DNA of 64,000 nt from positions 608,001-672,000 of the forward strand of contig CM000433.1 of the NCBI GenBank assembly GCA_000165345.1, read 5' to 3'. Every line of letters begins with the position of its first letter. The stretch's first letter is position 1. This document shows, one piece after another, positions 61,801-64,000 of the stretch. The notes below the pieces were generated by a model. That model saw only the letters and a list, made by a program, of their open reading frames with translations, made no database searches and was not told where the DNA came from. Position numbers and translations under genes: made by a program.

Positions 61801-64000
61801 TCTTGATATTGATGAAATTATTGACAAATCCAGACAAGATAAGGATTTAGTTGCTGAAAATAAGGATGCTTTAGAAGAAGAAAGAGATCTAGCATTCAAG
61901 AATGCAGTTGAGTCTTATTTAATAAAATTGGTAGAAACAGCTCTTGATAGATTAGAGACTTGCAAGCTGATTCAATACAACCATAAAGATGGACATGTTG
62001 GATCATTAATGCTTGGAAGAATTTCCTCTCATTTCTATTTATCACCAGAAACAATTCAAGATCTTGATAAGCAATTACTTCCAAATTTATCTGAAATTCA
62101 ACTTTTTAGATTATTTTCAACTTGTAAAGAATTCAAATTTCTTCTTGTTAGAAATGAAGAAAAGATTGAATTGGAGAAGTTGGTGGATAAAGTTCCGATA
62201 CCTATACAAGGAGTGGGATCCAGCAATGTTGATGGTAATGATAATATTGGCAATATGGTTGATCTTGATACTTTTACTAAAGTTAATGTTTTACTTCAAC
62301 TTTATATAACAGGGTCAAGATGGATTAATGCAAAACTAACTCTTCTCTCTGATCTTCACTTTATTGCTCAATCTGCTCCAAGAATATTCAGAGCTATTTT
62401 TAACTTGGCTATTAAAAGAAGGTGGTCAACGTTGGCTAGAAGATCACTTAAGATTGCAACAGTAAGTTAAAATAGTGAATGAATTATTAACCTGATGTAA
62501 ATTATGTTAATAATATGATGATAAAACGTTTAAAATTCTTGTCACTACCATTGAAATATTCATATTATTATATGAATTTTGAAAATAAATAAACGTAAAA
62601 ATCTGATTAATCAAATTTATCATATTTTCTGAATGGTTTAATAATTTATCACAATAATTCTTTCCTTAATTAATCTATTTTTTAGATGATAGAAAGAAGA
62701 TCTTGGGAGGCTATGCTACCTTTAAGACAATTTAAAGGTATTTCCGAAGAAGTTGTTAAAAGATTAGAAAAGAAAGACATTAACTGGAATACTTACTACA
62801 GCTTTACCAGTAATCAATTGGGTGAAATGCTCAAATCTTCTAAATTAGGTAAGTTTTTTCAATTTTGCTAATTCCACATCTTTTGCATTATTTCCAATAT
62901 AATTTAATAATTAATATTGGAACAGTTTCCCGCCAAATTTTGCATGAAAATGAATTTTGTAAAGATGATGACAAAAAAAAAACAAAATGACAAGCATATG
63001 TCTGAAAGACATAAATTTAAAAATCATGGTGAAATTGATTGATTAGTTATTGAAGTGTTGCCAGTACTTCTTGATTAAAGATGGAAAGCTGCGTTTTCAA
63101 TAGCAATGAAGTAATTTAATCATGATTTTTATTTTTTTATATTGATGTTAAAGTTTTTTTATATTGGTCTGATTTATTCAAATTAACTCTTTGCATGCAG
63201 TTATAAATTTATTTAGGCGGGAAAGCTTTATGCAGTATGTGGGATAGTTAAAAGGTTAATAAGAAATTACTAATTATTTAAAATAGGTCCCGTTTTATAT
63301 AATTTGATAAGAAAAATACCAAGATTGGAGATATCTGGAAATATCTTCCCAATTGACTCGAAAATTTTACAGCTAGATTTGGTTATTAAATCTAATTTTA
63401 TATGGGATAATAAGATTCATGGTCAATCAATGACAGGAGATATTAATACAGATGAAATAAATACTGGCGAAACATTCTGGATTCTAATAGAAGATTCTGA
63501 TGGTGAATATTTATATCTCTCTGACATGATAGTAGTAAGACCATCATTGAATGAGATTTCCAATAATAAAAATGAAAATGAAATATTTATGCAAGATGAA
63601 TATTATTTAAGTTACCAGATATTCTTAGAAAAGAAAGGTGTAAGAAAAAATTATGACCAAGACGATGTAATTCCCCCATTTATATTTGTAAGGGCTATTG
63701 CTGATAAATGGTTGCATTCAGAAACGAGTATTTCTGTACCAGTTGAGAATAAAGTAATATTACCAAATATCCAATATGAAAATACTGAATTATTAGATTT
63801 ACAACCAATTAGAGTAAAAAAAGCATTTTCTGAATCTGGATTTGAGGTGTATTTGAGGAGGATGTTTAGTATTGGAGATAATGATAAAGAATTTGATCAT
63901 CAAAGCTATGATTCATTAAAATTAAATGGCCTTCAGACACAATTGTTTAATTTGATTTACAATTCAGATAAAAGCTTTTATTTATCATCACCTCCTGGAA
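58856..64000 (+). CDS. BRR2: Brr2 / SNRNP200 U5 snRNP spliceosomal RNA helicase (5' portion; continues beyond the window), 3 or more exons
   Basis: N-terminus [27 protein letters not shown] (compare human [25 protein letters not shown]). First helicase cassette: LVCAPTGSGKTNIAMLCIL, FDEVHMLHDSRGSVLE, ...[51 protein letters not shown]...MIGRGGRPQYD, and the Sec63 module RISSHFYLSPETIQ. Exons in the window are 58856-62461, 62686-62848 and 63287-64000. The splice junctions restore colinearity with the human sequence (...LKIAT|MIERRSWEAMLPLRQF...KLG|PVLYNLIRKIPRLEISGNIFPI...). Confidence 0.85.

What the first reader, a model, noticed from the sequence alone, without database searches (positions are those of the whole stretch)
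62849..63286. Unusually long Brr2 intron carrying E2F-like and GCATGC promoter motifs
The introns verified in this window are 65-73 bp (DHH gene), 45-78 bp (SNF2 gene) and 224 bp (Brr2 intron 1). Brr2 intron 2 is 438 bp. It contains gtttcccgccaaatttt + tgcatg (62926-62946) and ttgcatgcag ... ttaggcgggaaag (63191-63225), the same E2F/GCATG combination that marks intergenic promoters here. This suggests an intronic promoter (alternative Brr2 start or antisense), an intron-hosted small RNA gene, or an intronic enhancer. Any of these would be rare for such a compact genome.
Basis: seen in the sequence. Interest (0 to 1): 0.5.

Follow-up and report, generated by a model that had tools for sequence, protein, structure and literature searches.

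The report
Intron-hosted snoRNA inside Brr2 intron

Summary
Brr2 intron 2 is window 62849-63286 (438 nt, GT..AG, reading frame verified). It carries TTTCCCGCCAAA + TGCATG at 62926-62946 and TGCATGCA + GGCGGGAAA at 63192-63224. GGCGGGAA occurs 8 times in the window against 0.05 expected, and the other six copies are intergenic.

The intron hosts a box C/D snoRNA on the sense strand, about 62959-63180. Its 12-nt guide pairs with 18S CAUAUGCUUGUC and targets the A27/A28 site served by human U27 and yeast snR74. SNORD27 is the best Rfam hit in three species, always below the gathering score. Boxes, guide and terminal stem are conserved in nine Cryptosporidium genomes, with compensatory changes.

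The intron is long for three reasons: the snoRNA, a 120-130-nt hairpin inserted between D' and C', and a long stem formed by the intron flanks. This flanking stem also exists in species that lack the motifs.

The E2F-like and GCATG motifs are the invariant cores of that stem's two arms. They are probably also genuine E2F/AP2-type DNA sites, because intron 3 has an unpaired, conserved E2F site. What they drive is unresolved.

Introns 1 and 3 also host C/D snoRNAs. This is a new member of a known kind, of moderate interest.

The parts
62849..63286 (+). Brr2 intron 2 (438 nt, GTAAGT...AG), the host intron
   Evidence: Frame-verified exon junctions. The same intron position is present in 8 other Cryptosporidium genomes, at 210-546 nt.
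62959..63180 (+). Predicted box C/D snoRNA, long form (about 222 nt), a functional equivalent of U27/snR74. The ends are inferred from the terminal stem, not mapped.
   Evidence: Best Rfam hit is SNORD27. Boxes, guide and terminal stem are conserved in 9 genomes. Consensus fold shows compensatory changes.
62965..62971 (+). Box C, AUGAUGA
   Evidence: AUGAUGA is present at this position in all 9 genomes.
62973..62982 (+). A10 tract, predicted to pair with the U-run upstream of box D (about 63159-63165)
   Evidence: Consensus fold of 6 species, pairs at columns 26-31 with 212-217.
62989..63000 (+). D' guide GACAAGCAUAUG, complementary to 18S CAUAUGCUUGUC. The fifth nucleotide upstream of D' pairs with A28 (yeast numbering; A27 in human).
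   Evidence: 12-nt match to positions 25-36 of a real environmental alveolate 18S (L009). TGACAAGCATATG is invariant in 9 genomes.
63002..63005 (+). Box D', CUGA
   Evidence: It is CCGA in C. felis.
63013..63136 (+). Internal hairpin inserted between D' and C', with a conserved apical CCAGUAC (63061-63067)
   Evidence: Fold z = -4.9. 12 pairs with compensatory changes in 6 species. Absent in C. felis and C. andersoni. C. ryanae has an unrelated 179-nt hairpin at the same place.
63143..63148 (+). Box C', UGAUGU
   Evidence: Conserved as UGAUGU/UGAUGC in 6 species and C. ryanae.
63169..63172 (+). Box D, CUGA
   Evidence: It partners box C through a terminal stem in all 9 genomes.
62926..62946 (.). 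Left motif pair: E2F-like TTTCCCGCCAAA (62926-62937) + TGCATG (62941-62946). This is the core of the 5' arm of the flanking stem.
   Evidence: CCGCCAAA is invariant in 6 species. It pairs with the right motifs in the MFE fold and in the pair counts.
63192..63224 (.). Right motif pair: TGCATGCA (63192-63199) + GGCGGGAAA (63216-63224). This is the core of the 3' arm of the flanking stem.
62861..62958 (+). 5' arm of the external (flanking) stem, including the conserved CCACA (62874-62878). Limits are approximate.
   Evidence: Whole-intron fold -99.7 kcal/mol, z = -3.86. Flank-to-flank fold z = -5.2. Pair counts.
63181..63258 (+). 3' arm of the external stem, including the conserved UGUGG (63238-63242). 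Limits are approximate.
63268..63273 (+). Putative branch-site UACUAA, about 95 nt downstream of box D
   Evidence: Seen in the sequence. (T/A)TAAT is largely conserved in 6 species. This is an inference.
62505..62615 (+). Neighbouring element in intron 1: a second box C/D snoRNA (box C 62515-62521, guide 62536-62549, D' UUGA 62551-62554, D 62603-62606)

Best explanation
Brr2 intron 2 is a snoRNA host intron. It is transcribed with Brr2 on the + strand.

The intron RNA folds into one long rod. The flanks (about 62861-62958 and 63181-63258) pair with each other, and this brings box C (62965) and box D (63169) together across a short terminal stem so that the box C/D snoRNP proteins can assemble (inferred). 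The RNA is then released by splicing, debranching and exonucleolytic trimming, or by cleavage in the flanking stem (inferred).

The mature RNA is about 220 nt. Its 12-nt D' guide (62989-63000) pairs with 18S rRNA nucleotides 25-36 and directs 2'-O-methylation of A28 (yeast numbering). This is the site served by human U27 and yeast snR74.

The intron's length has three causes: the snoRNA itself, a 120-130-nt hairpin inserted between D' and C' in the C. canis-to-C. parvum clade, and the roughly 100-nt arms of the flanking stem.

The E2F-like and GCATG motifs are the sequence-invariant cores of the two arms. I consider it more likely than not that they are also genuine E2F/AP2-type DNA sites. That would give this snoRNA locus transcriptional input of its own, but this step is not shown.
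For: Rfam evidence:
- SNORD27 is the best hit in the window (26.8 bits), in C. andersoni (35.7 bits, E = 2.7e-4) and in C. felis (33.3 bits).
- The Tetrahymena snoRNA TtnuCD28, which carries the same guide, is the next hit in the latter two.

Guide and target:
- The guide matches 12 nt of a real alveolate 18S at positions 25-36.
- In a whole-window scan, the only guide-plus-box matches of 12 nt or more fall in Brr2 introns 1 and 2.

Conservation:
- The intron position, box C, guide and D' are conserved in all 9 genomes.
- The box C/box D terminal stem is present in all 9, with compensatory changes, for example UAAA/UUUA becoming UGUUAA/UUAACA in C. canis.
- The internal hairpin has 12 compensatory pairs and z = -4.9.

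Rod structure:
- The whole-intron fold has z = -3.86.
- On the 6-species alignment, 87.5% of cells are paired against 44-50% for slid controls, and 20 pairs changed on both sides against 7-11.
- Flank-to-flank pairing has z = -3.0 to -7.4 in every species with a long intron. This includes C. felis and C. ryanae, which have no E2F or GCATG motif.
- The many G:U pairs indicate that the sense strand is the structured one.

Context:
- Introns 1 and 3 of the same gene also host C/D snoRNAs.
- The literature reports intronic ncRNAs in C. parvum (PMC9465071).
Against: - No RNA data were available, so expression, the ends of the RNA and the methylation of 18S A28 are all untested.
- Every Rfam score is below SNORD27's gathering score of 52.
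- A mature length of about 220 nt is unusually long for a modification-guide C/D snoRNA, and the alternative of two RNAs is not formally excluded.
- The rod structure was derived from the window sequence itself, which inflates the percentage of paired cells (caveat).
- The core pairs CCGCC/GGCGG and GCAUG/CAUGC never vary, so they say nothing for or against pairing.
- Just outside the CCGCC/GGCGG core, the chipmunk-genotype and C. ubiquitum changes are not compensatory (helix 7).
- The target check used an environmental alveolate 18S, not a Cryptosporidium rRNA. That the Cryptosporidium 5' end is identical rests on my own knowledge.
Confidence: 0.8

Rival explanations
1. The E2F-like + GCATG modules are genuine DNA cis-elements that form an intronic promoter or enhancer. 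E2F/DP and AP2 factors would bind them and either start transcription inside the intron, giving an independent snoRNA transcription unit, or boost transcription of the host gene. This is not exclusive of the snoRNA-host explanation. It is a rival only for what the motifs do.
For: - GGCGGGAA occurs 8 times against 0.05 expected, and the six other copies are intergenic, often within 15-30 nt of a GCATG as here.
- E2F is the dominant motif of open promoter chromatin in C. parvum (bioRxiv 10.1101/2025.01.17.633476; PMC12246861).
- The cores CCGCCAAA, GGCGG and CATGCA are invariant or nearly invariant across 6 species, while neighbouring helices of the same RNA show many compensatory substitutions. 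This implies sequence-specific constraint, not just pairing.
- Intron 3 carries one E2F site in the same clade. It has turned over between consensus variants (TTGGCGCCAA against TTTGGCGGGAAAA in C. canis) and is not paired in the predicted folds.
Against: - The flanking stem is conserved in species that lack the motifs, and the intron-1 snoRNA has no such motif in any species. The snoRNAs therefore do not need one.
- In intron 3 the E2F site lies downstream of the snoRNA, so it cannot be that snoRNA's sense promoter.
- No TSS, cap or ATAC data were available.
- A third pair of conserved complementary blocks (CCACA/UGUGG), which is not a known promoter motif, behaves in the same way.
Confidence: 0.4
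2. The motifs are purely structural. They would be GC-rich and palindromic clamps of the flanking RNA stem that only happen to resemble E2F and AP2 sites.
For: - They pair with each other in the MFE fold, in nested order: outer CCGCC/GGCGG, inner UGCAUG/CAUGCA.
- The stem is the feature conserved across the genus.
- C. canis shows compensatory changes next to the core (U:A to G:C, helix 7).
Against: - Exact identity to the promoter 8-mer on both arms, together with a GCATG 15-24 nt away as in real promoters.
- No covariation in the cores despite saturating divergence elsewhere in the intron.
- The AAA of CCGCCAAA is invariant, although its predicted partners are poorly conserved (helix 8, 59% paired).
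- An unpaired E2F site is conserved in intron 3.
Confidence: 0.3
3. The intron holds two separate small RNAs rather than one long snoRNA. These would be a short 5' RNA using the CUGA at 63002 as its D box, and a second RNA around 63105-63180 using UGAUGU and the CUGA at 63169.
For: - Rfam aligns the window sequence as a truncated 60-nt SNORD27 ending at 63019.
- A length of about 220 nt is atypical for a guide snoRNA.
Against: - The sequences flanking box C (62965) and the distal box D (63169) pair in all 9 genomes with compensatory changes. In C. felis they form 11 contiguous base pairs around an ordinary snoRNA with about 76 nt from box C to box D.
- No canonical box C precedes the distal D box.
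- The interval between them is one closed hairpin with covariation.
Confidence: 0.1
4. The intron contains an alternative Brr2 start, or the promoter of an antisense transcript.
For: The right-hand module (GCATGCA, then GGCGGGAAA) lies 60-95 nt upstream of exon 3. The same GCATG-then-E2F-then-gene order is seen at window 55277/55480 upstream of the ORF starting at 55602.
Against: - The intron interrupts a helicase cassette, so a truncated protein has no obvious function.
- ORFs in the intron are at most 41 codons.
- The abundance of G:U pairs shows the selected structure is on the sense strand.
- There is no supporting RNA evidence.
Confidence: 0.07

Closest known systems
SNORD27 / U27 (human; Rfam RF00086), yeast snR74 (Z4) and Tetrahymena TtnuCD28 (RF02303): box C/D snoRNAs guiding 2'-O-methylation of 18S A27/A28
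   Same: - Box C, D', C' and D architecture.
- The guide sits upstream of D' and has the same core sequence GACAAGCAUAUG.
- The predicted target nucleotide is the same.
- It is intron-encoded, like human U27.
   Different: - Scores are below the Rfam gathering threshold (26.8-35.7 against 52).
- The C. parvum-clade form is about 220 nt rather than about 70 nt, because of a 120-130-nt hairpin between D' and C'.
- The host is a protein-coding spliceosomal helicase gene. Human U27 lies in a non-coding host gene, and yeast snR74 in a polycistronic cluster (own knowledge).
External or flanking stems of intron-encoded box C/D snoRNAs. Examples are mammalian snoRNAs placed at a non-optimal distance from the branch point (Hirose and Steitz, own knowledge) and the yeast Rnt1p-cleaved external stems of U18 and snR38 (reviewed in PMC10932220).
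   Same: - Complementary intron sequences on both sides of the snoRNA extend the terminal stem.
- The stem is present when the snoRNA is far from the 3' splice site (114 nt here) and absent in C. andersoni, where the distance is 75 nt.
   Different: - Here the stem involves nearly the whole intron (about 60 bp or more).
- Its cores coincide with the genome's main promoter motifs.
- No processing enzyme or cleavage site is known in Cryptosporidium.
Cryptosporidium E2F/DP and AP2 (TGCATGCA) promoter motifs (Oberstaller et al. 2013, as summarised in PMC12246861)
   Same: The sequences match, and E2F and GCATG co-occur within 15-30 nt, as in the intergenic promoters of this window.
   Different: The location is inside an intron, as an inverted pair bracketing a snoRNA. 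Function and factor binding are untested.
Intronic ncRNAs of C. parvum (Li et al. 2022, PMC9465071)
   Same: They are small structured RNAs encoded in the rare introns of a compact genome. The authors proposed that these RNAs keep the introns in place.
   Different: - Only 4 of the 23 were typed as snoRNAs.
- A 2025 review lists just 5 C/D snoRNAs.
- I could not determine whether this locus is among them, and no target assignment for it was found.

Membership tests
Box C/D snoRNA (general class) | Box C (RUGAUGA) near the 5' end and box D (CUGA) near the 3' end | tested here: met
   AUGAUGA at 62965-62971 and CUGA at 63169-63172, conserved in 9 genomes.
Box C/D snoRNA (general class) | A short terminal stem joining the sequences just outside boxes C and D | tested here: met
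   A stem flanks the boxes in all 9 genomes: 6-11 contiguous bp next to the boxes in C. canis, C. ryanae and C. felis, and elsewhere 2-4 bp next to the boxes followed by an interrupted extension (9-10 of the 12 positions compared are paired). Compensatory changes are seen, for example A:U to U:A in C. canis and G:U to G:C.
Box C/D snoRNA (general class) | An antisense element of at least 10 nt ending 1-2 nt upstream of D or D', complementary to rRNA | tested here: met
   12 nt complementary to 18S positions 25-36, ending 1 nt before D'. Chance expectation for the whole-window scan is roughly 0.1-0.6 by my own estimate.
Box C/D snoRNA (general class) | A stable RNA bound by fibrillarin, Nop56, Nop58 and Snu13, with methylation of the target | not testable with these tools
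   No RNA-seq, RiboMeth-seq or immunoprecipitation data were accessible.
SNORD27 / snR74 family | Rfam RF00086 covariance-model score at or above the gathering score (52 bits) | tested here: not met
   26.8 bits in the window, 33.3 in C. felis and 35.7 in C. andersoni. It is the best-scoring family in each case. No Rfam family reaches its gathering score anywhere in the window.
SNORD27 / snR74 family | A guide that places 18S A27 (human) / A28 (yeast) opposite the fifth nucleotide upstream of D' | tested here: met
   Guide register worked out.
E2F/DP binding site (promoter element) | Sequence matching the TTTSSCGC-type consensus, identical to the motif enriched in this genome's promoters | tested here: met
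   TTTCCCGCCAAA and GGCGGGAAA carry the same 8-mer as six intergenic sites. Observed 8 against 0.05 expected.
E2F/DP binding site (promoter element) | Conservation as a sequence independent of any RNA-pairing partner | tested here: inconclusive
   In intron 2 the two sites are mutual pairing partners and their cores never vary. In intron 3 a single unpaired E2F site is conserved in the same clade, with turnover between motif variants.
E2F/DP binding site (promoter element) | Factor occupancy, open chromatin, or a transcription start nearby | not testable with these tools
   ATAC-seq and long-read data exist but could not be queried.
External-stem-assisted intronic snoRNA | Intron flanks on both sides of the snoRNA are complementary beyond chance, and this is conserved as structure rather than sequence | tested here: met
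   Flank-to-flank fold z = -3.0 to -7.4 in the 8 genomes with long introns, including two with unrelated flank sequences. z = -0.4 in C. andersoni, which has a short intron.

The most novel reading that the evidence does not exclude
The inverted E2F + GCATG modules may be a dual-use element. As DNA, they would form a nested, E2F-driven transcription unit or enhancer inside the Brr2 intron. That would couple snoRNA supply to the parasite's E2F growth programme independently of the weakly expressed host mRNA. As RNA, the same palindromic sequences would form the processing and assembly stem of the snoRNA. A further possibility is that the conserved 120-130-nt hairpin, with its invariant CCAGUAC loop, gives this U27-type snoRNA a second function.
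Probability: 0.3. Interest if true: 0.55.

Novelty: new member of a known kind. Interest (0 to 1): 0.35.

Why it matters
Cryptosporidium has very few annotated snoRNAs. A 2025 review lists five C/D snoRNAs, and none has an assigned target.

This locus adds three target-assigned C/D snoRNAs in a single gene. They correspond to the 18S A28 site, a site in the 18S GGUAGUGAC region, and a U41-type 28S site.

It also explains why three exceptionally long introns survive in a genome that has shed most of its introns. The intron positions, the snoRNAs and a rod-like intron fold are conserved across the genus.

Finally, it flags a testable question about gene regulation in this parasite: do promoter-type E2F/AP2 motifs inside introns act as internal promoters for non-coding RNAs, or are they RNA structural elements? 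For genome annotation, it shows that long introns are good places to look for the missing snoRNAs.

Tried and rejected
1. A homologue search with a Brr2 fragment returned no Cryptosporidium protein; every hit was under 1000 aa. I reached the orthologous loci through the neighbouring DnaJ gene instead.

2. I tried to place the window on a C. parvum chromosome, to see whether one of the annotated snoRNAs (cgd2_3583, cgd6_3219, cgd7_1545) is this one. Five PDB searches with window proteins and literature searches gave nothing. The supplements of PMC9465071 are not held.

3. I considered an H/ACA snoRNA or a second guide in the internal hairpin. There is no H or ACA box. The hairpin and the D-side spacer have no complementarity above shuffled controls to the rRNA pieces I hold, which are 18S 1-633 and the last 1.1 kb of LSU. 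This is inconclusive because most of the rRNA was unavailable.

4. I considered a protein-coding or antisense gene in the intron. ORFs are at most 41 codons, and the structure is sense-strand specific.

5. I looked for a snoRNA next to the E2F site at 3217, in the long 3'/3' spacer. None was evident.

6. Chance occurrence of the motifs is rejected and by their conservation in six species.

7. No Rfam family reaches its gathering score anywhere in the window.
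Full report
**Observation**

The window is Cryptosporidium. The DnaJ-type neighbour of Brr2 is 97% identical to a protein on a Logan contig, 89% to C. meleagridis, and progressively less to eight further named Cryptosporidium species/genotypes. Brr2 exon 1 ends at 62461. Intron 1 is 62462-62685 (224 nt). Exon 2 is 62686-62848. Intron 2 is 62849-63286 (438 nt, GTAAGT..AG), and exon 3 continues in frame through a split GGT codon.

The 8-mer GGCGGGAA occurs 8 times on both strands of the window against 0.05 expected. 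The other six copies are in intergenic spacers, five of them immediately upstream of an ORF start, and they often have a GCATG within 15-30 nt. TGCATG occurs 51 times against 20.7 expected.

Published numbers (1370 introns covering 1.29% of a ~9 Mb genome; PMC9465071) give a mean intron of about 86 nt, so 438 nt is indeed long.

**What is in the intron**

An Rfam scan of 62300-63500 at a relaxed threshold gives one snoRNA-like hit, SNORD27, at 62960-63019 on the + strand (26.8 bits, E = 0.052). It aligns box C AUGAUGA and the guide-plus-box GACAAGCAUAUGUCUGA. No Rfam family reaches its gathering score anywhere in the window.

I obtained a real 18S 5' region from an environmental alveolate contig (L009). 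The guide is complementary to its positions 25-36, CAUAUGCUUGUC. With one spacer nucleotide before the D' box (CUGA, 63002-63005), the fifth nucleotide upstream of D' pairs with A28. This is the position methylated through snR74 in yeast and, as A27, through U27 in human.

I scanned the whole window for a [C/U]UGA box preceded by at least 11 nt complementary to the rRNA pieces I hold. Only two hits of 12 nt or more were found. One is this site (12 nt). The other is in Brr2 intron 1 (14 nt). Two further 11-nt hits lie inside long ORFs.

**Comparative evidence**

Through the DnaJ neighbour I fetched the syntenic region of eight further genomes. These are a 97%-identical strain, C. meleagridis, chipmunk genotype I, C. 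ubiquitum, C. canis, C. felis, C. ryanae and C. andersoni.

Both intron positions are conserved in all of them. Intron 1 is 222-455 nt and intron 2 is 210-546 nt. In intron 2, AUGAUGA and UGACAAGCAUAUG followed by a D' box are present in all nine genomes. The orthologues in C. andersoni and C. felis again have SNORD27 as their best Rfam family (35.7 bits, E = 2.7e-4, and 33.3 bits). The Tetrahymena snoRNA TtnuCD28, which has the same guide, comes next.

Box D is the CUGA at 63169-63172. In every genome the nucleotides just outside box C and this box D form a terminal stem. The stem changes by compensatory substitution:
- UAAA/UUUA in the window
- UGUUAA/UUAACA in C. canis
- GAUAAA/UUUAUC in C. 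ryanae
- 11 contiguous base pairs in C. felis

**Long form and internal hairpin**

Box C and box D are about 76 nt apart in C. felis and 96 nt in C. andersoni. They are 201-206 nt apart in the six species from C. canis to the window species, and 238 nt in C. ryanae. The extra sequence lies between D' and C' (UGAUGU, 63143-63148) and folds into one closed hairpin at 63013-63136 (z = -4.9).

In the six-species alignment, 12 pairs of the predicted consensus structure, most of them in this hairpin, keep pairing through changes on both sides. The apical CCAGUAC is invariant. C. ryanae has an unrelated 179-nt hairpin at the same place (z = -4.9).

I found no H or ACA box in the hairpin. It has no complementarity above shuffled controls to the partial rRNA I hold. 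I read it as an expansion that keeps D' and C' together, and a second function is not excluded.

**The whole intron is a rod, and the motifs are its arms**

The window intron folds at -99.7 kcal/mol (z = -3.86; 0 of 100 shuffles reach this). The fold is a single nested structure in which the 5' flank pairs with the 3' flank. Within it:
- UUUCCCGCC pairs with GGCGGGAAA.
- UGCAUG pairs with CAUGCA.
- CCACA (62874-62878) pairs with UGUGG (63238-63242).

On the six-species alignment this structure has 87.5% of cells paired against 44-50% when partners are slid by 1-3 columns. It has 20 pairs changed on both sides against 7-11, and a covariation score of 0.156 against 0.05-0.09. The structure was derived from one of the aligned sequences, which inflates the first measure.

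The decisive control is cross-species. Folding only the sequence upstream of box C with the sequence downstream of box D gives z = -3.0 to -7.4 (0 of 100 shuffles) in all eight genomes with a long intron. This includes C. felis (z = -6.4) and C. ryanae (z = -7.4), whose flanks have no E2F-like or GCATG motif at all. C. andersoni, whose box D is only 75 nt from the 3' splice site, has no such extension (z = -0.4).

A flanking stem is therefore the genus-wide feature. This fits what is known of intron-encoded C/D snoRNAs placed far from the branch point, and of the Rnt1p-type external stems of yeast (own knowledge; PMC10932220). G:U pairs are frequent, so the structured strand is the sense strand.

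**Are the motifs also DNA elements?**

Several points speak for a sequence-specific role beyond pairing:
- Both arms carry exactly the promoter 8-mer, with a GCATG at promoter-like spacing.
- The cores CCGCCAAA, GGCGG and CATGCA are invariant or nearly invariant in six species, while other helices of the same RNA have turned over by compensation.
- The AAA of CCGCCAAA is invariant, although its predicted partners are not conserved (helix 8, 59% paired).
- In Brr2 intron 3, the same clade has a single E2F site. It is TTGGCGCCAA in four genomes and TTTGGCGGGAAAA in C. canis, and it is not paired with an upstream partner in the predicted folds.

E2F is the dominant motif of open promoter chromatin in C. 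parvum.

Several points speak against a promoter for the snoRNA:
- Intron 1 has no such motif in any species.
- The intron-3 site lies downstream of its snoRNA.
- The non-promoter pair CCACA/UGUGG is conserved in the same way.

I conclude that the motifs are certainly stem arms and probably (about 0.6) also genuine protein-binding sites. What they drive cannot be decided without 5'-end, chromatin or mutational data.

**Context**

Intron 1 hosts a second C/D snoRNA: box C at 62515-62521, guide UUCUUGUCACUACC at 62536-62549, D' UUGA at 62551-62554, and box D at 62603-62606. Its guide is invariant in nine genomes and complementary to 18S GGUAGUGACAAGAA. By my numbering the target corresponds to yeast A464 / human A512.

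Intron 3 lies beyond the window and is 182-521 nt in eight genomes. It hosts a third C/D snoRNA with the invariant guide AUAUUCGUACUG(U/C)-CUGA and a weak SNORD41 match. So every long Brr2 intron is a snoRNA host.

**Novelty**

Intronic ncRNAs are known in C. parvum. Li et al. (2022) report 23, of which 4 were typed as snoRNAs, and they suggest that such RNAs preserve introns. A 2025 review lists only five C/D snoRNAs and notes that targets are unconfirmed.

I could not establish whether this locus is among those already reported. The kind of element is well known. The target assignment, the long form with an internal hairpin, the rod-like intron and the motif-bearing arms are additions. I classify it as a new member of a known kind, of moderate interest.

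**Limits**

No transcript, cap, chromatin or methylation data could be consulted. The ends of the snoRNA are inferred from the terminal stem. The rRNA used for target checks is not from Cryptosporidium and covers only part of the rRNA.

Noticed in passing
window 62462-62685 (Brr2 intron 1), snoRNA about 62505-62615: A second box C/D snoRNA: box C at 62515-62521, a 14-nt guide UUCUUGUCACUACC at 62536-62549 followed by D' UUGA, and box D at 62603-62606. The guide is invariant in nine Cryptosporidium genomes and complementary to 18S GGUAGUGACAAGAA. No Rfam hit, and no E2F or GCATG motif in the window or in any other species apart from one GCATG near the 3' end of the C. canis intron. Box D lies about 80 nt from the 3' splice site.
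   Followed up: partly
L001 2436-2832 (minus strand), Brr2 intron 3, beyond the window end. Orthologous introns are in L002-L008.: A third long Brr2 intron (182-521 nt in 8 genomes) hosts a C/D snoRNA with the invariant guide AUAUUCGUACUG(U/C)+CUGA and a weak SNORD41 match (16.3 bits). In the C. canis-to-C. parvum clade, one E2F site (TTGGCGCCAA, or TTTGGCGGGAAAA in C. canis) lies downstream of the snoRNA and is unpaired in the predicted folds.
   Followed up: partly
L007 4619-4887 (minus strand), C. ryanae intron-2 snoRNA: C. ryanae also has a long-form snoRNA (238 nt from box C to box D), but its 179-nt internal hairpin is unrelated in sequence to that of the C. parvum clade. C. felis and C. 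andersoni have ordinary short forms. This suggests either independent expansions or loss.
   Followed up: partly
window 2788-3571: An unusually long spacer between two convergent ORFs contains a palindromic E2F site (TTTTGGCGCCAATTTT, 2812-2827), two CATGCATG (3035-3056) and GGCGGGAA (3217) directly before an ATG. It may hold an unannotated small or intron-containing gene. No snoRNA was evident by eye.
   Followed up: no
window 4577-4991, 34496-34602, 38133-38167, 55277-55487: E2F-like 8-mers and (T)GCATG(CA) recur together in intergenic regions, as close as 15-30 nt apart at three of these four sites (about 200 nt at 55277/55480). This suggests a composite promoter module in this genome.
   Followed up: no
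L010 1-3998 (environmental contig Ga0172376_10038374): An rDNA spacer of an unidentified protist carries a U6 snRNA gene (minus strand) and a 5S rRNA gene between the LSU 3' end and the SSU 5' end.
   Followed up: no
(protein database behaviour): A search with a 554-aa Brr2 fragment returned only proteins under 1000 aa and no Cryptosporidium entry, although full-length Brr2 genes (about 2300-2430 aa) are annotated in the fetched genomes. Very long proteins may not be retrieved by that tool.
   Followed up: no
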